From Octopus sinensis (Eukaryota): 64,000 bases of DNA. The stretch is from contig NC_043002.1 in assembly GCF_006345805.1 (NCBI RefSeq), positions 39,928,001 through 39,992,000 of the forward strand, written 5' to 3'. The position numbers and the translations under genes are program-made. The notes beneath the pieces are model-generated. The model saw nothing but the letters and a program-made list of their open reading frames with translations, was not told the DNA's origin and made no database searches. Each line of letters starts with the position of its first letter. Position 1 is the stretch's first letter. Below are positions 23,565-56,184 of this stretch, in pieces.

Positions 23565-24015
23565 GATTTTTTACTCGGTGTATGTGTATATGTATGTATG
23601 CATGTATCTATGTATGTGTGTGTGTGTATGTATGTATGTATGGCCGATTCATCGTAATTTTTTACTCGGTGTATGTGTATATGTATGTCTGCATGTATGT
23701 GTGTGTGTGTATGTATCTATGTATGTGTGTATGTGTATGTATGTATGTATGGTCGATTCAGTGTAATTTTTTACTCGGTGTATGTGTATATGTATGTCTG
23801 CATGTATGTGTGTGTGTGTATGTATCTATGTATGTGTGTATGTGTATGTATGTATGTGTGTATGTATGTATGGTCGATTCAGTGTAATTTTTTACTCGGT
23901 GTATGTGTATATGTATCTATGTGTGTGTGTGTGTGTGTAAGTATGTGTGTGTGTATGTATGTATGTGTGTGTGTATGTATCTATGTATGTGTGTGTGTGT
24001 ATGTATGTATGTATG
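23565..24015 (+). repeat. Compound minisatellite: 4 units starting TTTTTTACTCGGTGTATG, each followed by a (GT/GTAT)n tract
   Basis: Directly visible. The GGTCGATTCAGTGTAA spacer is repeated. Confidence 0.85.
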
Positions 24016-24576
24016 AATTATAAAAGTTAGAACCCAAGAAATGGAAAAACGCAAAAATGTCAGGTATACGTGGCAGACCAACAATGAGAAGACAAGAAAA
24101 GGAAGGGATTTAATGGGGAATTGTAGCTTAATTTTATTTTTACTACTGAATAAATTATACCCACTAAAATATTACTTTTGTTCCCCAAAGTATATTTTCC
24201 AATCGCACACACAATTTCAATAACACGAATAGCAATCATCTATATATATAATATAAATATATATTCTTTAACTTGTTTGTTATTTGACTGCGGCCATGCT
24301 GGAGCACCGTCTTATAAATGTAGATTATATACATTTACCCATTTATATTATATTTATTGTGTACAGTATATGATACAGATATAACATAGATTATATATAT
24401 ATTGTTGTTTTCATGTCCAGTTATATATAATAAAATCAGTTTTGCATTAATCTTATTCTTTTTAAACAAGAATGTTGAATGACTTCGAAGTTTCAGCCAG
24501 CTAAGCTATATATATATATGTATAAACATAAAATATACATACATATGTGTGTATAAACGTAGAATATACATACTTA

Positions 24577-24625
<49 letters not shown>

Positions 24626-24656
24626 ATATTTCGGAATGGTCATTTTGCCAGTTTAG

Positions 24657-24764
<108 letters not shown>

Positions 24765-24863
24765 TATATATATATGTATATATATACGTAGCCCCAGCAT
24801 GGCCACAGCTCAAGAGCTGAAACTGGAAAACATAAACATAAATAAACATACATATGTAAATGC

Positions 24864-24896
<33 letters not shown>

Positions 24897-25317
24897 TACG
24901 CACGCGCACTATTCACACAGATAGACACGTGTGTGTGTGTGTTTACATTTATGTATTAATCGCAAGGGAGGCATCCTTTGTTGACATTAAAAAATTGTTC
25001 CATGTTACAAACAAAAGAAGTATGGAACTAAAATATAATTAGAAAAACAGAATATTACCACTTTATTAGAATGCATTTTTTCCTCATGATAATTATGTAT
25101 ATTAATTTGATTTAAATAAAGATATATATTCGCAATGGGCCAACAGTAGCCTTTTATAAAGTAAATATATAGGCCAAACCCGTGCCAAAGAAACCACCGG
25201 TGAATTATATTATTATTGAATAATCTTCGCTCCCAAGTCAATACTGTTTTAAAATACCCTACCATGACCATCCTGCCTCTATTTTATATATTCAGTATAT
25301 GTGGCACTATATCCATA

Positions 25318-25356
<39 letters not shown>

Positions 25357-25942
25357 TTATTTATTTGACAGACCCCGATCTAAGGAGCTCTGACCCTTTG
25401 TTATTTTCTTTTAGAATATATACTATAATTATATTTATTTTACTTTTTGAAAGATAGTAGATAGCCTGTAAATAGGATATTTGGTTGCTATTTTCAGTAA
25501 TATGATCGGCCACGTAGTATTATGATGACTTGAGTGAACGACTAGTTACTTTGTTTTGTTTAAGTACATATAACTCTTATAAAACTGAATTTATTATTAA
25601 GGGAAGAAAATAAACAAAGCCATGAAAAATGCTAAAAGTAAATATTTGCTGCCAACTAAGTGTCCAGAACTTTTGGGAAATTTTAAAAGAAAAAGATTAA
25701 TAGAATCTTTATTTTCCAAACTCTTCACGTAGCTCTCTGAATTAAAAATAATCTAATAAACAAATCATATTATATATATATATATATATTTGTTCCTATA
25801 TGGAAGGGAACTTTCAACACCTTTTATAACTTATATAGCTGTATAATTTTGTTCCAACTTTAAAAATATATACATATACAACCAATACTTTCTTCCTAAG
25901 ATTTCTTTATCTTAAAATACATCGACCTTCTTGTTTGAGAAT

Positions 25943-25990
<48 letters not shown>

Positions 25991-26338
25991 TATAGATATA
26001 TATGCACACACAGCAATCTTTGCTAACTTTTTCTTTCTTTGAGAATTCTTTTCAGCTACGAACATCAACTGTGTAACATATGTGTAAAAACTAAAATATA
26101 CGAGCATATTTTGCCATTAGATTTATTTTTCGGTATCGAAATTGCACACACACATATAGTCTAATTACGGTAGCCGGCAAAACTTCGGAGTCATAGTCCC
26201 CTTGCAATTTAATCGGAATAAAATAAGATTATTTGTACTGAATCAGTTTTTTTCTTTCTCTTTAGCCTTTATGATGTCTATATGTGTGTGTGCGCGCGTG
26301 GGAGTTTCATAGTTTTGTATAATATATATAAATATATG

Positions 26339-26393
<55 letters not shown>

Positions 26394-26437
26394 ATGTGTT
26401 ACCGCTACTGTATATAACTCACTTTGATATTTATCAT

Positions 26438-26470
<33 letters not shown>

Positions 26471-27583
26471 GTATATAATTACATGTATGTGTACACAAAA
26501 CTACGAAACTATAGCTAATTCTTATATTTTTTTTCTCTGTATAATTCAGAGAGCTACATAAAGAGTTTGGAAAATTAAAAAAAACCCAGAACAGTGAAAT
26601 AAAATATTCTGAAAGGATTAGAAATTATACATACATACAACTCCCTCCCTTTCATCCTCTCCGGCACTGATTAAAAAGTACCAAGTACTGAGAGATGAGT
26701 TAATTTTATTCCCTATGAAATTATTTCTAATGGACTTTTAGTTTCCGAACAAACATATATATATATATATATATTATATACAAACACAAGAATAGAGGAA
26801 AGAACTAAATCTACCAAGTTTGCTATTTATGAAACTACATAAAAAAAAAACACACACACAACGAAACTAATAAGAATTCTTTGAAACAAACCAGCTGTAA
26901 TATATTATATTTATATTAGATGGTATAAATATAAATATATATATATATGTATATATACATGTATATATTTTCATCAAATGTACGGAATTAATTTAACATC
27001 ACCGGTGGAAGCTTTTTTTTTTAGTTGAAACTGAGAAAAACAAATAAACTATAGAATTTTGAGAGAAAAGAGCCAATATGGCTGACAAGACGGTAGCAAC
27101 AATAAAAATTACATACTAAATACAGTCTGGTATGTATGTGGTGGGGAATATATATTTCTGTGTGTATGTGTGGGTGTAAGTACTTAGATATGAGAGTATC
27201 ACCATAGATGTATGCATGTGGCTGCGTATGCAATGGGGGGGGGAGAGAAGGGAGGAACATGGATGCGTATCTTCGTGATTGGATATGTGTGTGTTTCTGT
27301 GTGTAGGATGGGGGGGAAAGGTGCGTAGAGTGATGTGTGCGCGTATCATCGTGGAAGTATCTAGGTGTTTGTATGTATGTGCGTGCGCATTTAGTGTATA
27401 TACTGATGTATGTATATATATATATATGTGTATGTGTGTATCTGTGTGTGTGTATGTGTGTATCTGTGTGTGTGTGTATGTGTGTATCTGTGTGTTGTGT
27501 GCTTCGCCGTATGCAAATGTAACATGAGTGTTGTTGTGTATGTAGGGAAATCTGTGTCATAACATTGACTGCTGAGTTAACAA

Positions 27584-27593
27584 CCATATATGG
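27584..27593 (+). promoter_or_regulatory. Perfect CArG box (SRF site) CCATATATGG
   Basis: Matches CC(A/T)6GG, about 90 bp upstream of the TATA-like element. Confidence 0.65.
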
Positions 27594-27627
27594 TATGAAA
27601 ATGGGGGGAGAGGGTGAATAGCCGAAT

Positions 27628-27635
27628 CTGATTGG
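27628..27635 (-). promoter_or_regulatory. CCAAT box (NF-Y) CTGATTGG
   Basis: Consensus inverted CCAAT in a proximal promoter position. Confidence 0.6.
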
Positions 27636-27650
27636 ATAGCTAGACAAAAT

Positions 27651-27671
27651 CGTCATCGTTTTATGACGTCA
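27651..27671 (+). promoter_or_regulatory. Half CRE (CGTCA, 27651-27655) plus full palindromic CRE TGACGTCA (27664-27671)
   Basis: Exact CREB consensus immediately upstream of a TATA-like element. Confidence 0.7.
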
Positions 27672-27678
27672 GTTCCCT

Positions 27679-27685
27679 TATATTA
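27679..27685 (+). promoter_or_regulatory. TATA-like element TATATTA; predicted TSS ~27705-27715
   Basis: Lies after the CRE and just before an ATG-free leader. Confidence 0.45.
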
Positions 27686-28161
27686 TTGCTCGTCCTACTC
27701 CTCTGTCGTTTGGCGTTAGTTGTGTTCCTGTTGTTGATATATACGTCCATTACGCTTCTGCAGTTCTCTCTCTTCCTACCTTACTGGCGACCAAACAAAG
27801 AACCACTTTTTACAGCTCTCAAAGAAAACCAAGAAAAAACAAAAAACCCACCAAAGTATATATATATACCAAACAGACTGTTGTTGGATAGAGAACAAAA
27901 TTGATTCTTTTTCCCCCCTATTTGTCTGTTATCTTCACGCAAGAAAATCTACGTTTTTTTTCTCTTTTCTTCGGAAGCGTAAACTTAAGCCAACTGTTTT
28001 AGAAAAAGCCAGAAAGTTCTTCATAATTCTAACAGTATTCAACTGAACCTCTACCGAAACACCAACAAGAAAAAGAAAACCAATAATTATATAATTTAAT
28101 TTTTTTTAAATTGCTTCTGCGTTGTGCTAATCCCTTCTTTTGACTGAAGTTCCATCTCTGA

Positions 28162-28182
28162 ATGTTTTTGTCAGCACGATGA
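28162..28182 (+). other. uORF (MFLSAR*) whose TGA overlaps the BTG ATG-ATG start
   Basis: ATG TTT TTG TCA GCA CGA TGA. Main ATGs at 28179 and 28182. Confidence 0.55.
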
Positions 28183-28811
28183 TGAACGAAGTAGCAAGCG
28201 CTACCGAATTTCTGTCCAGTATTCTCAGGACCCACTCCATATGTACGGAGAAAACAGATTTATTCAAATGTTACCTACAGTCCCTTCTTCTGAGTCACTA
28301 TAGAGATCATTGGTTCCCGGAGAAACCCAACAAAGGCAGTGGCTACCGATGCCTCCGGATGAATCACAAAATGGATCCTCTGATTAAAGTAGCTGGCGAG
28401 AGGTGCGGATTTACAGAGGAAGAAATCTTCACATTCTTCCCTCGTGAATTGACTGTGTGGATAGATCCACTGGACGTTTCTTATAGAATCGGTGAAAACG
28501 GCAGCATAGGAATACTTTACCGGGGCACAAGTTCCAGTAGTTTGGAGTCTTGTAGCACGCCCGGCAACAACACTACGTACACTTCTAACTTCTCTTCCTC
28601 CATCTCCAACAGTTCCATCATCACACCGAGACCAAACAATAACACCAACAACAACAACACCACTACCAATCTCACCATCTCCTCACCATCAACATCTCAG
28701 TCAGAGTCTAAAGGGACTGCCCTACTTTCCTCTTGTAAGGATCAATTTATCAATTCCTTACCCATTACCGGAGATTCAATGAAACACTTGGCCACTTGTG
28801 TATTTAGTTAA
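28179..28811 (+). CDS. BTG1: BTG1/BTG2-like antiproliferative protein (BTG/Tob family), 210 aa, intronless CDS
   Basis: Box A HYRDHWFPEKPNKGSGYRCLRMN, Box B FPRELTVWIDPLDVSYRIGE, Box C-like NGSIGILY, and C-terminal SCKDQ...VFS resembling BTG1/2. No PAM2 motif seen, so not Tob. The ORF track starts at TTG 28140, but the first in-frame ATG is 28179. Confidence 0.95.
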   Translation: MMNEVASATEFLSSILRTHSICTEKTDLFKCYLQSLLLSHYRDHWFPEKPNKGSGYRCLRMNHKMDPLIKVAGERCGFTEEEIFTFFPRELTVWIDPLDVSYRIGENGSIGILYRGTSSSSLESCSTPGNNTTYTSNFSSSISNSSIITPRPNNNTNNNNTTTNLTISSPSTSQSESKGTALLSSCKDQFINSLPITGDSMKHLATCVFS

Positions 28812-29506
28812 ATCTCCTTCCATAAAAGAAAAAAAAAATATTTTTTTTAAAAGAAAGCTGGAAGAAAAAACTACTTCCTAACTTTTTTTAGAAAAAAAAA
28901 ATTTACCAACAAAAAAAAAAAAATTTACATTTGTACATACGACGGATCTCTTGACTTGTTTTCGTTTCACGGACTCTGAATTAATTGGATGATGGTTATT
29001 TCAAGCTTTTGAGATATATAATAATCTATTATATTAAGGAAAAAGACTCCCATTTATAGATTGAAAAAAAGAGTAATTTTGTAGTAAAATGAAAAGCAAC
29101 AAAAAATATTTTGGCCATCTTGGTATTGGGGAACAAAAAAGAAACTCTTCTCGACACTGGTGGGGGGTAAAAGAAAACTTTCAACATTTTTACCTCAAGA
29201 GATTTTTTTTTTTCCTCCCTCAGTGTAAACATCGAAAGGGTAGTAATATTAAGTTGTTTTTTTTTTTCAAGGTGCTCGGTTGATCTACAACCGTATTCCC
29301 CTCCCCTCAAAATTCTGTTCCCCCACCCCCTCTCAAAACTTCAATCCATTGATAAATTTTTTTCAAAAAGTCTTTCATGAAATCATCCTGACCTCTGCAT
29401 TCAATTTAGTCTTTTTAAAATGTCTGTACGAGATGCCAATTGCAGAAACTTTTATTTTATATAATTTTTTTTTTAGTAAAAATGAAAAAACAAAAAAGAG
29501 AATTGC

Positions 29507-29512
29507 AATAAA
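29507..29512 (+). terminator. Candidate polyadenylation signal AATAAA of the BTG gene
   Basis: First canonical hexamer I found after the stop codon, followed by U/GU-rich sequence. Confidence 0.5.
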
Positions 29513-30911
29513 ATTGTAATGAATTTATTTAAAATGTTTCTTTTTAATTTATATTTTTGTTTGGGAGATTTATATATTTCCAATTGTGGTTAGATTTAAT
29601 ACCTAACTTTAAACTTGACCACCTTTTTTTTTTTTTTTGGTTAAATTAATGATAGGTAGAACTAAATTGTCACTTTCTCTTGTTAATAACCATCAATATG
29701 GTATGTATATACTTTTTTTTTATCACCTTTTTCTTTGTCTTACTAAACTGATATATGTTTTACTAAAGAAAACAAACATCTCTCGTAATGGTTGGACAGT
29801 TTCGCTATTTCAATCACTTCAAACAATGAAACTTACGATTTCTTCATTTTTGCCTGAAGAATGGTTAAGTCATCTAAAAATTCCCGACTTCGATCAATCA
29901 GACCAGAAAACCGTTTCCCATACATTCATTTCCCATTCCCTGTATAGAAATATACTTAAAATTATAGGGGTTTTTCCATACTCCCGTCACTATACAGAAA
30001 TCAATATTTGTCTTTGAGTGCGCGTACAAAGTTAAATATTTCCCCCCATTTCCTGCAGATGGAATGAATACCATTGAGATATTTTCTTGGCTTCCCCTCG
30101 TAATAATAGCAGCAGCGTCAGGATAGATGACTAAATATCGAAATATGACAATCGACCGTGGTTGCTATGTAATATAAAGGAGCCACTTCCTCTCCCCTAT
30201 CAAGCAAGGAATAATAACACCTATTTTTAGATCTCTCTCTCTCTTTGCTACTATTTACTCACTTAGTCACAATATATATAGATAATACACATATAGTAAC
30301 TGATTAATTAGTCTAATAGTGTACAATTTTTTTTTATTTGGTTGGTTATTTTAATACTCCATTTCATAAAGAGCAATTTCGAGAAAATTTGAGGTGGAAA
30401 AAAAAAAGCCCAGTGTCCTCTCATGCCATTTGAACTGGCGACGGCGAAATCGATCGTCTTAAACTATTTATTGAAGCTTTTTATTATTGAATGTCAAAAA
30501 GTTAATTTTTAATGGTGATACGTAACTTATTTTTGGAAGCTAATTTGTACGCACAGTCTTTTGACTTTTTATTTTTCTAATTCATCGGTACGCTAAATAA
30601 TTAGATAAACTTTGGAATTTTGCTTTGAGATGCCACTATTCTGACTACCGATAACTTTTCTGATCTAGCATCGGAAGTTATAAACTCAATAAAAAGTTGA
30701 TTAACGCAATCTGTTTTCTATGGAGCCAAAAAATAGCAATCAGTTAGTTTAGATTTCGTAATTATTGGCGGGATCATCTGTCCGTTTATCTTTTCCCTCC
30801 TTCGCTTGAAGCCTCCTGGTAAACAAAAGTCCGCCTTTTATTTTACTGGTAATTCATTAGATGTATACAAACTCTCATGCATACACACACACACACAGGT
30901 ACCGTATACAA

Positions 30912-30962
<51 letters not shown>

Positions 30963-33900
30963 TGACTGACTGGAAGTGTATGTAACAGTTTGGCTGTCAT
31001 CGTGGTGGTGGGGGCGACGTCCTCTGCCGCCGCCGTCTCTATTGTGGAAACTTGGCCAACAACTACTAAACAGGAGATTAACAGATGTTTACAAACACAA
31101 AGGAAATGTCAATAGTACCATGGAATAGTTAGGGTTTATTTGTTTATTTATTTAATTTTGGTACTTTTAATTTTGTTTCGTCAATGAAATTGGTTGATGC
31201 CGAGCTGAAAAAACGTATTTAAAGATTTTGCGCAAAATGGATTATTTTGGTTATTTTGCTATGCAAAGTTTTAATTTGAATCCTTTCTTTCAGGTCTACA
31301 GTATTGTGTGGAAGATATAATTATGGGTATTTTACCTAATTATGTACTGACAATTAACCCAATATTCTTACTGTGATGCATTATGATTTTAGTCATTTTG
31401 AAATTGTTTGAAAGTTTTCTTAGACACCTAGTCGCCGACTTTTAACTGTTTAGCGTGCTAATTAATCATATTGCTTTCGCCCACTAATTACCCTATCCGA
31501 ATTAGTCTCTCAAGATTCACCCGGTTTAATATAAACGAATTCAACACATGTAAAACTAGTTTTATTTCGTCACCTGATGTTTATTTATAACGGATCTTAA
31601 TGTGTACGTGGCTAGAATTTTTTTTTTCTCGAATCTGAATTGCCATCTAAATTGAGAAAATGGAATCGTGTATTTTTAGTCACATCGTGAAGTCGGGTTC
31701 CATGAATTAAAACTGATGGCTTTATCTCCTACCTTGAATTCGTAGGTTGTTCAAGTGAAATACTTCAATTTCATCTTCAGTAGCTCTACATTTTAATTAG
31801 TAATTTGAATTGACAATCTGGCTGACTTGACAACATATTGCTTTTCTGTGGGTATAGCATTAACAAAGCGGCCTTCTTTCGCATCATGGTCTTGCCGGAG
31901 GCACTTTAATTATTGATCTATTATTCGTATATTGGCTTAATTGGAATTTTGGAGAGTTAAGCGTAAAAATTAGGGTTTTTTTAATTTTATTTTATTTTTA
32001 AGACGTCGCAAATTAGAATTTACTGATAGTCTAGGGTTAATTTTAACCAACGATGATAGTGCTTGGACACAAGCAGCATTTTATATTTATTGCTTAAAAT
32101 ATATTTTCTCTCCTGAACATTTAATGTAAGAAGTAATTTTTCTTTGACAATACTAAATCAAGTGAATTTACAAAAAGGTTTTTTTTAATACAGATTAGAA
32201 AATTAGCATTAAATCTCTCGGTTCTTAGCTCAGTGATTACCGATTATTAATTACATTAAAAGGCAGAGGATTTCCATCATACACACTAATTTCTACGAGA
32301 ATTCCGGTAGTTTTTCTTTCGTATTCTAATTACCTACAAATTGGAGATTACCATCTTATTGCATCTGGCTGCTATTGGTCTATATTCGTTCATAAAATGA
32401 GGAAAATACAATTTGGATTGCATTGTTTTCATGGAAAAAAAATTGCCCGCTGCAGGGCTTTGTTTTTAATTGATAAATGCCAAGATCCAAAACAGCTGCT
32501 TCAGCTGAGCTGGCAAGATTATGAAAGGAACAAAAAAAAAAGTGCAGTCACATCATTACTTGACCTAGCAGAAACAGCCAAATCTCCATCTCAGCCCATT
32601 GTTTAAAAAAAAAAAAAAATCAAAGTTAGCTTGGAATCTTAGCTACAACAACAATAACATTTTAGCTTGTGTAATTAATTACTGGAAGTTCATTTCTTTT
32701 GTAACCAGAAATTTTCAACTTGGAAAACTGAAGCTTAGACAAATGATCCACTAAAATTGGCATTGGCCACACAACAAATTTATTTGCAAAATAGATGAAA
32801 TGAATTGAATTAACTTTGTTGTATATATACATACTTGAAACTTATTTTACCAGGTATGTCACAGTAGTTTGAAACCAAATATTCCTTGAATACTATCCTA
32901 CCATCTTAGAAAAGGCTCATGTGAAAGTAAGCTTGATTCCTGGTTCAGTCATTTCATTTTCCTGGTTTTCTTTCTACAGTTTCCAACTAAGTCAAAAGAA
33001 GGGCTCTCACATTATCCTGACATATTTTGAGATTATATATTTCATTTTATACTGAGAAGAAACTGAAATTTATTTTTTATAATTCTTTTTTTTAGGTCTC
33101 TTGTCCAAGATTTGATCTTGGTGTTGTAAACTACCAAAGCTACTTGGTCACTTTCAAGTTGAATTTTCATTTTTTACTCTTTAATTTGTACCCTTCTCCC
33201 TTTACTGACTGGATTTGGATTCAATGTGGAGAAAGGACAAAACTAAATATTGCAAGGTATTAAAAGTTAGATTTTTACTTTTCTACTAACATGCAGTATT
33301 AACTGAATTAAGTATCAGTCTTTTGACTACACTGTCCTGAGAGAAAGCATTGAATTTCTCTAACTTCCATTTTAATTTAGCATTTTTAGAGCAGAATTGG
33401 GTGGGGGATGAAACTGGTTAAATGCAAAGTAATTTGAAAGTGATTGAGTAGCTTGATTGGTTTACTTTGTACTAGGATCAATTTTTGGTGAAGAAGACTT
33501 ATGAAAAATTTTAATTTCTTTCAGTATAAAATATTTTCTCCTATAGCCTGAAAATGTGTCAGCTAGTAGAATGTGACTTCCTAAATATTGACTGGAAGTT
33601 GAAGAAAGATCAACAAAACAAAATTGACTTGGGATTAAAACTCCCATTTTTAACCTAAATAGGCTGCAGTTTGAAGTGACTGTAGAAGCTTCAGTCAGCA
33701 GTGTGATTTAACAAAGGCTGTCACTGCACACCCAAAAGGTTTCAACTATAATATACTGTATAGCTTGTGATAGGATTGCTAATATGGGTAGAGGCTACTC
33801 CTCACTTTACAAAGAACATCATAATTTATTGCATTCACACAATTTCACAAATATAATTCTAGAATTTTTATTTTCTGAATTATCGAACAAAGCAAGAAAA

Positions 33901-34154
33901 GTCATATGTTGCTGTTTTATCCTTACATATAAAGAAGGCTGTTTGTCAGGAAAGAACTTAAAACTGAAAAGAGTTGATTCTGTTCACTTGATGTACATCA
34001 GAAAGTTGCAAACCTATCATAAGAAGCAGTGTGGCAAACAGCATAATGCATCCAGAAAAATGTCAGTAAAACTGATAGTAACAACTAGGATAAAAACAAT
34101 GTCCCAGGTACACAAAATACATTTAAAAAATACTGCACAAGAAAAAATAAACTG

Positions 34155-52896: not shown

Positions 52897-55009
52897 CTAT
52901 GTTTGACTTTTGCTTTATGTCGGTACAAGTTGGCTCCAAGTCTCACCCAGAGACCTCAAGAGACAACAGGCTGGAAGTTCACGTTGTTGTTATGCCTAGT
53001 GTGCCATATATTGGTGTTTTTTTGGTGTTGTACTAGTGAATGTCTAATACATAAAAAAAAAAAAGTTTGTTTTAAACCTTGGGATTACATAGAGAGTATT
53101 TTGCGTAGGATATGAGCAGTTCCCATGAGCACTATCTTTTGAATTTCTGCCATTTTGGGGTTTCCTGGTATCTGAGTTAGGTAGCAATCAGTCCCTTCCA
53201 CATTTTGCTGATTTCTATTTCAAGATCTTTATATTTGCTCAGTTTTTGGTAGGTCTTGACAGATACGTTTATATCGATTGGGATAGTCATATCAATGAGG
53301 AGGCATGTTCTTTGTCTGAAGTCTTTCAATATGATGTCTGGCCTATTTGCATTTATCTTTCTGTCAGTTTGAATGGTGAAGTTCCAGAGGAGTGAGATGT
53401 GGTCATTTTCAAGCACTGGAGGTGGATTGTGTTCCCACCAGTTTTTTTCATGGGGCAAATCCAGGTTTTTGGAAATTACCCAGTTAATATATTGTGCAGC
53501 CCTATCATGCCTGTTGAGATAAATGCAGTCTTCTAGCGCCTACTCTGTAGGCGCTAGAAGACTGCATTAGGAGACAACATGATCAATGGTTTCATTTTGT
53601 TGTCGGCATACACGACATGTTGGGCTACTGCCGTTCTTTAATATGTTGGCCTGGTAGTTTCTTGTTGGTAGGCATTGATCTTGTAACGAAATGTGAACGT
53701 CTTCTCTGCACTGTTTGGGTGCAAGAAGCAATCACTATCCGTTGCTTTTAATAATCCAGATTCTACCAGTCAGAAACAGACAAGACGCAGACGTAAAAAA
53801 TATATATCTACTTTATTCTCTTATGACAGTAACAAATATGTGGTGTATCTGGTATCCCTTTGGTATGGATGTGTCTCAGCTGAACTTTATCGCTGTAGAA
53901 TTTACAGTGTTCAAATGCTAACGACACTGGTCAAAGATGGCGTCCGGAGAAAGGAAGATGAGGAGGTCGGCAACAAATGCTGGTTAAAAGTCTTTTGGTA
54001 AAGGCTGCTGCTTTGTCAAGTCCGGAGAGAGAAAGAATTCACGTCCTGTTCCTTCGAAGGCTGTGTCTCAAGTCACTGCTGACTGCTGCTATTTCACTCT
54101 GGACCCCTTTAAGGTTCACGCTCCCCTAGCCTAACAAGCCAAACTGCCACGTAGGCAAATTCCTACTTCCGGGCTTCGCGCATGCGCGAGAGGGCCCTTC
54201 CTCTCTGCCTTGGTGAAAGCACCAACACCGCACGCGCGAAACAGAAATGGACGGTGCGCGCGCGCGCACCGTTATATAGGATCACTACAATCTTGAGCTG
54301 CTATGATAAACCCCTCTGTTTCAGATTTTAAGCCAGAGGCCATTAGCCATTGATGGGTCAGGGTTTTGTCAATATCTGCATTATTCACTCTCTTTGGGTA
54401 TTTGCCATAGAGAGGTTTTTCTTGCCATTTATTATTCAGAATATCTAAGGCCGCAGTTTTGGCACGGGTTTTCATGCACCTAGCTTTTTCTGTGCTTGTT
54501 TCTTGTATGTCTATCTCTAATTCCGAAATTGGTTGTATTCGGAATTCACTTAGATATTCCTTTGCCTGTTTTGTTACTGAGTATGATGCTTTCTTGTTTT
54601 CATGTTTTGAGACAAGTTTTAACATCCAGTCCTCAGACTTTTGCAGGTAGGTGTCTAGGCCAATTGTAGCAATCTTCATTGTTATTGCCAGTTGCAAAAG
54701 ACCACGGCCTTCCTCTTTTATTGGCGGATAAAGTCGTTCTGTATCTGCCTTAGGGTGGTGCATTCTATGCATTGTCAACAGTTTTCTTATTTTTCTGTCG
54801 AGCTGACATATTTCAGTAATTGACCAGTTAACGATATTGAAACTATAAGTCACAACTGGTATGGCTAATGTATTGATTGCTTCAATCCTGTTTCTTGCAT
54901 TCAGCTCTGTCTTGAGTATTGCTTTCACTCTTCGATAGCATTCTCTCCTGATCCTTTCCTTCATCTCTGAATGCCTTATTCCGTTCCCTTCAATTACTCC
55001 TAGGTACTT
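52897..55009 (-). mobile_element. R4/Dong-like non-LTR retrotransposon (RT C-terminus, CCHC finger, restriction-like endonuclease), 5'-truncated
   Basis: KYLG; LNARNRIEAINTLAIPVVTYSF; GRGL; SETEGFIIAAQDQCLPTRNY; CRVC..ETIDH; RHD; W..TIQTDRKINANRPDI..IDMTIP..K..KYKDL. ORF stop at 53085. Flanked by (TAA)n on both sides. Confidence 0.9.
53682..54289 (-). mobile_element. Solo LTR (probably Gypsy-type) inserted in the LINE
   Basis: TGTA...TACA termini and a 4-bp TSD ATCT (53678-53681, 54290-54293). Removing it restores AAQDQCLPT. AATAAA on the minus strand near 53812. Confidence 0.85.
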
Positions 55010-55027
55010 ATTATTATTATTATTATT

Positions 55028-55122
<95 letters not shown>

Positions 55123-55133
55123 TATTATTATCA
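55010..55133. repeat. (TTA)n(TCA)n(TTA)n compound microsatellite
   Basis: Directly visible. It produces the poly-D/N run in ORF 54272..55186. Confidence 0.95.
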
Positions 55134-56184
55134 TTTAGTCCAAAGCCACCACTAATATGTTCAAGGCCATATACTATGAATTCCATTCCCTACTAAAACT
55201 CTTAACCACACCCTGACACCTGGTTCATTTCCTTCCTATCTCCTCCTCCTAATTCTTGACCTTCTCAATTCATTACTCTTTATCCTTTTTCATAGATTTT
55301 GTATGAAAACATTCAGATACACCTATCCCATCTCCTTTCAATACTTTTCACCTGTACATTTTCTTTTCTTTCCTTTCCACACTACCTCACTTTCTATATC
55401 CTTCTGTTCTTTTTCTCTCTTTTACACTCCCTTCTTTATCCCCCTCTAAATACATATTTATTCTCCTAACTTTGTAGCCATCTTACAGCTCTGACCATAT
55501 ACAGTAATATCTCACTTTACAAGGACCTGCTTTATGAAACCCAAGGTTTGCAAGTTTTATTTTATGATGAATATAAAAAGGTTAAACACCCATTTTATGT
55601 GTGTGGCAACAGCGCAACATGTGGCAACACTGGTCCTGACACATCTACACAGTTGTATATAGCGACAGAGTAAAAGCTTCTTCTAAGCAAACAACTTCAG
55701 ACTTGTTTTTTAAAAAGAAATCTACAAGTCCATCCACGAGGGCTTGTGAATTGGCATTCATGTTACAAGTGATGGTGTGTGTGAGTCTAATGTGAATGAA
55801 AGTGATTTACAAAACGATTATAATAATAATATTTTTTATTATAAATGATCTTGACATTCTTTTTACTTTACATAAAATATTCTTTACATTCTACTGTTGC
55901 TTTATTGCCATTTACTTACGAGTTGTTATAAATTTTATAGGTAAAATATTTTTCTGAGAATGAACTACGATTTATAACATTGCTACTATGGGAAATTATT
56001 ACACTGTTTTACAATTGACCACTTTACAAGTGGTCTCCAATAACAAATTAACTCATATACGGATGCATTACTGTATATTGAAATATTTCCATAACTGCTT
56101 CATAGTTTCAAATGTTTTAAATCAGAAAGGTTTGTAGTGTAGCTCAGTGATATCCTCACTGTTTGAGAGGTATATTAGAAATAA

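What the first reader, a model, noticed from the sequence alone, without database searches (positions are those of the whole stretch)
27584..27690. Immediate-early-gene promoter on an invertebrate BTG gene
Within ~100 bp the sequence shows a perfect CArG/SRE (CCATATATGG), an NF-Y CCAAT box, a half CRE, a full CRE (TGACGTCA) and a TATA-like box. SRE plus CRE plus TATA is the established c-fos/egr1 architecture, and mammalian BTG2 (PC3/TIS21) is a known activity-induced immediate-early gene. Inference: this BTG is a Ca2+/cAMP/MAPK-inducible IEG, which would imply deep conservation and offer a possible neuronal activity marker for cephalopods.
Basis: partly seen in the sequence, partly recalled or inferred. 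Interest (0 to 1): 0.75.

Follow-up and report, generated by a model that had tools for sequence, protein, structure and literature searches.

The report
Conserved signal-response promoter of octopus BTG
Just upstream of an octopus growth-arrest gene (BTG) lie three DNA control motifs in the same order and almost the same spacing as in two clam-like bivalves, so this promoter likely switches the gene on quickly after a stimulus, although that induction and its use as a nerve-activity marker are untested.

Summary
RNA contigs start at 27708-27709 and end in poly(A) at 29527, giving an unspliced 1.8-kb BTG1/2-type mRNA. On that start: CArG -124, CCAAT box -77, CRE -44, TATA-like -29. Two bivalve-type BTG genes from metagenomes carry the same ordered module. 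CArG to ATTGG is 47, 47 and 49 bp; CArG to CRE is 80, 76 and 77 bp; 0 of 20,000 shuffles of each matched. The genome encodes SRF, NF-YA and a CREB-type pKID, and its jun and srf genes have upstream CArG boxes. So this is a constrained SRF/NF-Y/CRE-type promoter, likely stimulus-inducible. Limits: induction was not tested. The TATA-like box is off-consensus and absent in the bivalves. No conserved Ets site supports the c-fos MAPK/TCF route. No vertebrate promoter was compared. Invertebrate BTG reports point to stress and quiescence, not only to neurons. The same motif set is already described for insect egr-B, and egr1/creb are already proposed markers in octopus. Verdict: new member of a known kind. 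The scan's earlier notes held nothing on it.

The parts
27584..27593 (.). CArG box / serum response element CCATATATGG, -124 to -115 from the inferred start; predicted SRF site
   Evidence: Identical in L040, CCTTATTTGG in L064 (two A/T swaps inside the A/T core). SRF gene present in the genome.
27628..27637 (-). CCAAT box (CTGATTGGAT on +), about -77; predicted NF-Y site
   Evidence: ATTGG at +47 from the CArG here, +47 in L040, +49 in L064, same orientation. NF-YA genes present.
27651..27655 (.). Half-CRE CGTCA, -57; not conserved at this place
   Evidence: The bivalves have their second half-CRE at +21/+22 from the CArG instead of +67.
27664..27671 (.). Full palindromic CRE TGACGTCA, -44 to -37; predicted CREB/ATF site
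   Evidence: TGACGTAA at +76 and +77 from the CArG in L040 and L064, against +80 here. pKID-bearing gene present.
27679..27686 (+). TATA-like element TATATTAT, -29; off-consensus, not conserved in the bivalves
   Evidence: for the sequence; for the distance to RNA 5' ends; for its absence in L040 and L064.
27708..27709 (+). Inferred transcription start (C|G, pyrimidine-purine step)
   Evidence: X2 contig of depth 368 begins at 27708 behind an adapter while the contig upstream has depth 2.9; X13 begins at 27709; X10 at 27728; X7 runs on upstream.
27708..28178 (+). 5' UTR, 471 nt, no intron seen
   Evidence: single contigs across it, no joints.
28162..28182 (+). Six-codon upstream ORF whose stop overlaps the two start codons of BTG
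   Evidence: function not tested.
28179..28811 (+). Single-exon BTG1/2-type coding sequence, 210 aa (BTG domain 1-113, Ser/Asn/Thr-rich linker, conserved C-terminal tail)
28812..29527 (+). 3' UTR, 716 nt, with AATAAA at 29507-29512 and poly(A) site at 29527
   Evidence: A-tails not in the genome at 29527 in X7 and X13. Five ATTTA, not above chance (P 0.33).

Best explanation
This is the proximal promoter of the octopus BTG1/2-type gene: a CArG box, a CCAAT box and a CRE, kept in order and spacing between octopus and bivalves, that are predicted to bind SRF, NF-Y and CREB/ATF and would make the gene a rapidly stimulus-induced primary-response gene. Shown: the motifs, the gene, an unspliced 1.8-kb transcript whose contigs start 44 bases after the first base of the CRE, conservation in two bivalve-type orthologs, and the presence of the cognate factor genes. 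Inferred from established biology: NF-Y keeps the promoter open; CREB/ATF at -44 relays cAMP/PKA and Ca2+ signals; SRF at -124 adds a growth, injury or activity input, more likely through an MRTF/actin-type cofactor or direct SRF activation than through an Elk/TCF ternary complex, since no Ets site is conserved; the short intronless unit allows a fast pulse; BTG protein then recruits CAF1/CCR4-NOT to deadenylate mRNAs, damping the response or promoting cell-cycle exit. The response is likely general (neurons, muscle, haemocytes, wounds) and not neuron-specific.
For: Spacing CArG-ATTGG 47/47/49 and CArG-CRE 80/76/77 in window/L040/L064; pattern centred on the octopus spacing +/-5 in 0 of 20,000 shuffles of each bivalve upstream region, and any-spacing cluster in 17 and 13 of 20,000. 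Surrounding DNA does not align between octopus and bivalves (best blastn E 0.08). L040 and L064 are 70% identical in protein and group with Mactra BTG (100/99) inside a mollusc clade (98/92) that holds the window protein. The L064 CArG changes two bases, both A/T to A/T, which fits selection for CC(A/T)6GG. RNA 5' ends at 27708/27709 in 2 of 4 runs from different studies, 27728 in a third. SRF, Elk/TCF, RPEL proteins, pKID and NF-YA are encoded in G000. Octopus jun has one and srf two perfect upstream CArG boxes; 0 of 4 other bZIP genes checked had one in the DNA held. Mouse Btg2 induction after seizures needs SRF (PMC5513048, passages), rises with CREB (PMC3407521, passages) and follows depolarisation and cAMP (PMC13133959 section 5). 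The cricket IEG egr-B core promoter has two CREs, an SRE and a CCAAT box (PMC6140108 section 46).
Against: No induction data were available. CCAAT and CRE sites are also common in constitutive promoters (established knowledge), and the transcript was present in all 4 same-or-near-species runs laid, though these runs were chosen for holding it. One of the 4 runs (X7) continues upstream through the promoter, and contigs cannot prove a start. Only two mollusc promoters were seen, both from one bivalve clade. The TATA-like box is not conserved. AU-rich elements are not enriched in the 3' UTR. The text of the snail IEG screen does not name BTG (0 hits; its 37-protein list is in a figure I could not read). 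In rat hippocampal slices Btg2 fell in a cluster other than the SRF-linked one (PMC3720722, passages). Invertebrate mentions of BTG1/2 concern ageing or metal stress, quiescence and CO2. No perfect CArG in 7 of 7 non-mollusc loci with more than 1 kb upstream.
Confidence: 0.65

Rival explanations
1. Constitutive or tissue-type promoter: NF-Y and CREB/ATF1 give steady expression and the CArG gives SRF/myocardin-type expression in muscle or motile cells, with little acute induction.
For: The conserved core is CCAAT + CRE + CArG without a conserved TATA or Ets site; the bivalves have a YY1-like GCCATTTT downstream, a word typical of TATA-less promoters (label recalled); the transcript is present in all 4 runs; no ARE enrichment.
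Against: Short unspliced unit; the same motif set drives a proven insect IEG; mammalian Btg2 is acutely induced through SRF and CREB; jun and srf share the CArG.
Confidence: 0.17
2. Stress, nutrient or quiescence promoter: the CRE is read mainly by ATF/C-EBP/PAR-type bZIP factors together with FoxO, and the gene rises slowly in stressed, ageing or cycle-exiting cells, as vertebrate BTG1 does.
For: The bivalve site is TGACGTAA, overlapping a FoxO-like GTAAACA, with a second TGTTTAC 32-33 bases before the CArG in both (factor labels recalled). BTG1 is a FoxO3a target (PMC6587536, passages). Aplysia BTG1-labelled transcript rises in aged neurons and mussel BTG1 responds to cadmium (PMC8840921, passages). 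Platynereis btg1/2 is enriched with foxo in quiescent neurogenic cells (PMC12669781, passages).
Against: The octopus promoter has no FoxO consensus in 26500-27760 and has a perfect palindromic CRE; the CArG is the best-kept element and is not explained by this reading.
Confidence: 0.15
3. Chance cluster of short words in AT-rich octopus DNA, without function.
For: CArG-CRE pairs are not enriched genome-wide (86 against 128 control), and the triple occurs at the control rate (7 against 7); the first-stage scan read many windows.
Against: The cluster sits 29-124 bases before the RNA 5' ends and recurs with matching spacing in 2 of 2 orthologous mollusc promoters (0 of 20,000 shuffles each).
Confidence: 0.03

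Closest known systems
Insect/crustacean egr-B core promoter (Gryllus bimaculatus; PMC6140108)
   Same: SRE, CCAAT box and CREs within about 200 bp of the start, conserved across distant arthropods (section 46 read).
   Different: Different gene; egr-B was shown to be induced under cycloheximide and by behaviour, this one was not tested; the order and spacing in egr-B are in a figure I could not see.
Vertebrate SRF/CREB immediate-early promoters (c-fos, Egr1, Nr4a1)
   Same: CArG plus CRE near the start. The conserved Nr4a1 CArG lies at -123 to -111 (PMC3720722); this one at -124 to -115.
   Different: No conserved Ets/TCF site beside the CArG, which defines the c-fos SRE (recalled); TATA off-consensus and not conserved; a CCAAT box is part of the conserved unit.
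Mammalian BTG2 (PC3/TIS21) and BTG1
   Same: Same protein subfamily (135 bits to BTG2 against 93 to Tob1; box C-like ENGSIGILY). Btg2 is SRF- and CREB-dependent in neurons.
   Different: One octopus gene corresponds to both vertebrate paralogues (inferred from 3 BTG hits in G000: this one, a Tob, and an odd contig). It is unspliced, while the vertebrate genes have an intron (recalled). No vertebrate BTG promoter could be compared, so homology of the cis-elements to mammals is not shown.
Molluscan IEGs already reported (Helix c-jun, C/EBP, c-fos, Egr1, Ier5l, Socs2, Dusp10; octopus creb and egr1)
   Same: Same proposed role: rapid response genes of the mollusc nervous system (PMC6584072 sections 24 and 26; bioRxiv 10.1101/2025.10.16.682951 part 1 of 4).
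   Different: Those rest on expression data without promoter analysis in the parts I read; BTG is not named in the snail paper's text; here the evidence is promoter anatomy and conservation.

Membership tests
Immediate-early (primary-response) gene | Rapid, transient induction after a stimulus | not testable with these tools
   Only Logan contigs without conditions were served.
Immediate-early (primary-response) gene | Induction without new protein synthesis | not testable with these tools
   Snail anisomycin screen does not name BTG in its text; its full list is in an unreadable figure.
Immediate-early (primary-response) gene | SRE and CRE close to the start site | tested here: met
   CArG -124, CRE -44 from the inferred start.
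Immediate-early (primary-response) gene | Short primary transcript with few or no introns | tested here: met
   27709-29527 in one contig with poly(A), no joints in 4 runs.
Immediate-early (primary-response) gene | Strong TATA box | tested here: inconclusive
   TATATTAT at -29, two mismatches to TATAWAWR; absent at that place in both bivalves.
Immediate-early (primary-response) gene | AU-rich elements in the 3' UTR | tested here: not met
   5 ATTTA against 3.9 expected, P 0.33; no WWATTTAWW.
c-fos-type SRE (SRF + TCF ternary complex, MAPK input) | Ets site beside the CArG | tested here: not met
   No (C/A)GGA(A/T)G(T/C) in 26500-27760; only an AGGGAAAT at -38 from the CArG; L040 has a TGGAAGT overlapping the CArG's end, L064 none. 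An Elk/TCF gene exists.
Conserved cis-regulatory module | Same motifs, order and spacing in orthologs while flanks diverge | tested here: met
   2 of 2 mollusc-type loci with enough upstream DNA; 0 of 20,000 shuffles each; flanks unalignable.
Conserved cis-regulatory module | Factor binding (SRF, NF-Y, CREB/ATF) shown | not testable with these tools
   Factor genes are present; binding needs ChIP or EMSA.
BTG1/2 subfamily of BTG/Tob | BTG domain with boxes A and B, plus box C; short protein without the Tob tail | tested here: met
   Pfam BTG; RIGENGSIGILY aligns to RIGEDGSICVLY of BTG2; 210 aa; a separate 588-aa Tob-type gene is L002. Box C is restricted to BTG1/2 per PMC13133959.
Neuronal activity marker | Low baseline and activity-dependent rise in neurons | not testable with these tools
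   Contig depth cannot rank expression.

The most novel reading that the evidence does not exclude
BTG1/2 belongs to an ancestral bilaterian immediate-early programme: an SRF-NF-Y-CREB module with fixed spacing has driven it since before cephalopods and bivalves split, its CCAAT-CRE half may survive in arthropods, and the 130-bp octopus element is a ready-made activity-dependent promoter for mapping active neurons in cephalopods.
Probability: 0.3. Interest if true: 0.7.

Novelty: new member of a known kind. Interest (0 to 1): 0.45.

Why it matters
Cephalopod neuroscience has few validated activity markers and few native inducible promoters. A compact, single-copy promoter with a located start and motifs kept across mollusc classes gives a direct in situ probe and a reporter to test. 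It would also add an mRNA-decay effector, not a transcription factor, to the conserved early-response set. Alignable-free conservation of a three-motif spacing between octopus and bivalves is unusual enough to be useful as a model of promoter grammar. The architecture itself is a known kind.

Tried and rejected
Promoter of a more distant octopod from reads: runs X16, X18, X19 and X22 gave no cover of 27510-27805; X16 and X22 matched only simple repeats; X18 held a related 3' UTR only. BTG loci in prokaryote and viral collections: one stray eukaryotic contig with 514 bp upstream and no motifs noted, none in viral contigs. Genome-wide enrichment of CArG-CRE pairs: none. Structured RNA: no Rfam hit in 24000-34000. 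AU-rich element enrichment: none. Bivalve start sites from the short contigs L039 and L066: the alignment to L040/L064 was poor; at most a weak hint that they begin about 120 bases after the CArG. CCAAT-CRE pair in arthropod-type loci: present in L096 and L081 (45 and 82 of 2,000 shuffles), absent in L052; the pattern was chosen after seeing the data, so it is weak. Aplysia sensitisation data: the 1-hour paper PMC4262601 is not held; the table of PMC7665899 was cut when stored, has 1-day and 8-day points only and no row labelled BTG; PMC5602346 supplements had no hit with one file not searched; PMC13064417 supplements could not be read. Unseen supplements and figures of these papers and of the snail and octopus IEG papers may hold BTG data.

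Full report
1. Observation. All five motifs are at the stated place: CArG CCATATATGG 27584-27593; CTGATTGGAT 27628-27637 (CCAAT on the minus strand); half-CRE 27651-27655; CRE TGACGTCA 27664-27671; TATA-like TATATTAT 27679-27686. The window has 2 perfect CArG boxes and 2 full CREs in 64 kb. The TATA-like word misses the TATAWAWR consensus at two positions, in a window with 437 consensus matches. Genome-wide, CArG followed 55-85 bases later by the CRE occurs 86 times (control 128), and CArG-ATTGG-TGACGT at this spacing 7 times (control 7; this pattern was set after seeing the bivalves), 4 of them copies of one repeat. The cluster is therefore rare but not enriched; its weight comes from position and conservation.

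2. The gene. ORF 28179-28811 encodes 210 aa with a BTG domain. Best solved match is BTG2 (135 bits) over Tob1 (93 bits), and the box C region aligns. The nearest named relative is Argonauta BTG2-like at 76%. G000 gives three BTG hits: this gene, a 588-aa Tob-type gene (L002), and a divergent one on small contig C6303 (L003). I infer that this gene corresponds to both vertebrate BTG1 and BTG2.

3. The transcript. Of 24 runs listed I laid 8. In the 4 near-identical runs, X2 has a contig of depth 368 that begins at 27708 behind a sequencing adapter, with only a depth-2.9 contig upstream; X13 has one contig from 27709 to 29527 ending in A residues that are not in the genome; X10 covers 27728-29363 in one contig; X7 runs on upstream past 27510 and also ends in poly(A) at 29527. 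No joints were seen. AATAAA lies at 29507. This gives an unspliced mRNA of about 1,820 nt (5' UTR 471, 3' UTR 716). Contigs cannot prove a start, so 27708 is an inference from 2 of 4 runs, with a third 20 bases further in and one against. On it, the TATA-like box is at -29, the CRE at -44, the CCAAT box at -77 and the CArG at -124, all ordinary positions for these elements (established knowledge). The other 4 runs did not cover the promoter.

4. Conservation. A metagenome scan confirmed 269 BTG stretches and kept 80. Nine of the 80 have more than 1 kb upstream; 2 of the 80 have a perfect CArG upstream, L040 and L064. I put 15 of the 80, plus L121, into a tree with 19 database proteins and the two other G000 hits. 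L040, L064, L039, L055 and L066 group with Mactra BTG (100/99), inside a mollusc clade (98/92) that holds the window protein. L039, L055 and L066 have only 169-271 bases upstream, too few to reach the module. So 2 of 2 informative mollusc-type loci could be tested, and both have it. Distances from the first C of the CArG: ATTGG +47 (window), +47 (L040), +49 (L064); TGACGT +80, +76, +77. The L040 CArG is identical to the octopus one; L064 has CCTTATTTGG, two A/T swaps that keep CC(A/T)6GG and lose the CCAT core, which favours SRF over a CCAT-binding factor (inference). A pattern centred on the octopus spacing +/-5 was found in 0 of 20,000 dinucleotide shuffles of each 1.6-kb upstream region, and an any-spacing cluster in 17 and 13 of 20,000. 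Outside the motifs octopus and bivalve DNA do not align, and the two bivalves align with each other mainly over this block. Not conserved: the TATA-like box, the octopus half-CRE at +67 (bivalves have one at +21/+22), and any Ets site. Shared by the bivalves only: TGTTTAC before the CArG, GTAAACA overlapping the CRE (FoxO-like) and GCCATTTT downstream (YY1-like; labels recalled). The 7 non-mollusc loci with over 1 kb upstream have no perfect CArG; a crustacean-like and a hymenopteran-like one keep ATTGG followed by a CRE or half-CRE 26-34 bases later, at weak, post hoc significance.

5. Trans-acting side. G000 encodes SRF (L122, best match human SRF, E 1e-33), an Elk/TCF (L145), RPEL proteins at two loci (MRTF or Phactr not told apart), a pKID-bearing gene and NF-YA. 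As an internal control, jun (L132) has CCATATAAGG 455 bases before its ATG with CCAAT boxes and CRE-like words, and srf has two perfect CArG boxes at -384 and -365, as expected from SRF autoregulation (recalled); four other bZIP genes had none in the 0.4-1.7 kb held, with unknown start sites.

6. How it likely works. NF-Y at -77 keeps the promoter open; CREB/ATF at -44 relays cAMP and Ca2+; SRF at -124 adds a growth, mechanical or activity input. With no conserved Ets site, an MRTF-type or TCF-independent route is more likely than the c-fos MAPK/TCF route. The short unspliced unit allows a fast pulse of BTG, which would then promote deadenylation through CAF1/CCR4-NOT (established for the family). 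All of these steps are inferred. I put the constrained-promoter claim at about 0.95, acute stimulus induction at about 0.65, and usefulness as a neuronal activity marker at about 0.35.

7. Against. No induction data. No ARE enrichment. The transcript is found in every near-identical run laid, though they were selected for holding it. Only one bivalve clade was sampled. In invertebrates the BTG1/2 mentions I found concern ageing and metal stress (PMC8840921, passages), quiescent neurogenic cells (PMC12669781, passages) and CO2 exposure in a squid (PMC11202396, one table passage). The snail IEG screen under anisomycin names jun, C/EBP, fos, Egr1, Ier5l, Socs2 and Dusp10 but not BTG in its text; its full list is in a figure I could not read (PMC6584072, abstract, sections 24 and 26, passages, one supplement).

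8. Known systems. Mouse Btg2 needs SRF for seizure induction (PMC5513048, passages), rises with CREB (PMC3407521, passages), and is induced by depolarisation and cAMP, as BTG1 is by cAMP (PMC13133959, section 5 and passages). In rat slices it peaks early and falls, in a cluster other than the SRF-linked one (PMC3720722, passages). The insect egr-B core promoter already shows SRE + CCAAT + two CREs (PMC6140108, section 46 and passages). creb and egr1 are already proposed as octopus IEG markers (bioRxiv 10.1101/2025.10.16.682951, part 1 of 4). Ten literature searches (most hits seen as listings only) showed no paper on a molluscan BTG promoter or on BTG as a molluscan IEG; subscription papers and unseen supplements may hold one. 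Look-ups in the scan's own notes by place, sequence and words found nothing on this element.

9. Verdict. Observation confirmed; interpretation partly supported. A real, conserved SRF/NF-Y/CRE-type promoter on a molluscan BTG1/2 gene, likely inducible, of a known kind. Interest 0.45.

Noticed in passing
window 28162-28182: A six-codon upstream ORF whose TGA overlaps the tandem start codons of BTG; it could tune translation or start-codon choice.
   Followed up: partly
window 28892-29448; run X18: A related species' 3' UTR aligns over 557 bases with 28 substitutions; a Pumilio-type word TGTACATA at 28932 lies in the part with no listed substitution.
   Followed up: partly
L132 (G000:C8 about 104.235 Mb) and L122 (G000:C9 about 94.137 Mb): Octopus jun and srf have perfect upstream CArG boxes (one and two); jun also has CCAAT boxes, TGATGTCA words and an AP-1 site. 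Both are candidate early-response promoters.
   Followed up: partly
L003 (G000:C6303:791276-791599): A very divergent BTG gene on a small, compact, AT-rich contig; long branch in the tree; possibly from a co-sequenced parasite, not the octopus.
   Followed up: partly
L040:1401-1483 and L064:1203-1294: The two bivalves share a further block upstream of the CArG (GAGTAACTACGGTA, TGACGC, TGTTTAC) that the octopus lacks; a possible bivalve-specific extension of the module.
   Followed up: no
window 27200-27285: A weaker echo of the promoter 350 bases upstream: a degenerate CArG-like word, a G-run and a second GATTGGATA at 27277; chance or an old duplication.
   Followed up: no
window 30110-30190: Downstream of the gene, a half-CRE, an RFX-like GTTGCTATG word and TATAAA lie close together; possibly another regulatory element (labels recalled).
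   Followed up: no
window 54272-55186 (-): 304-aa ORF that reads like the C-terminal part of a non-LTR retrotransposon polymerase (recalled resemblance); Pfam gave only low-complexity hits.
   Followed up: partly
L121 (WTIT01000149.1): An arthropod-type BTG gene lies in a contig filed under an archaeal MAG; likely eukaryotic contamination of that bin.
   Followed up: partly
L114, L116, L117, L119: A repeat family in G000 carries a CArG-ATTGG-TGACGT arrangement at similar spacing in at least 4 copies; whether it donates promoters was not examined.
   Followed up: no
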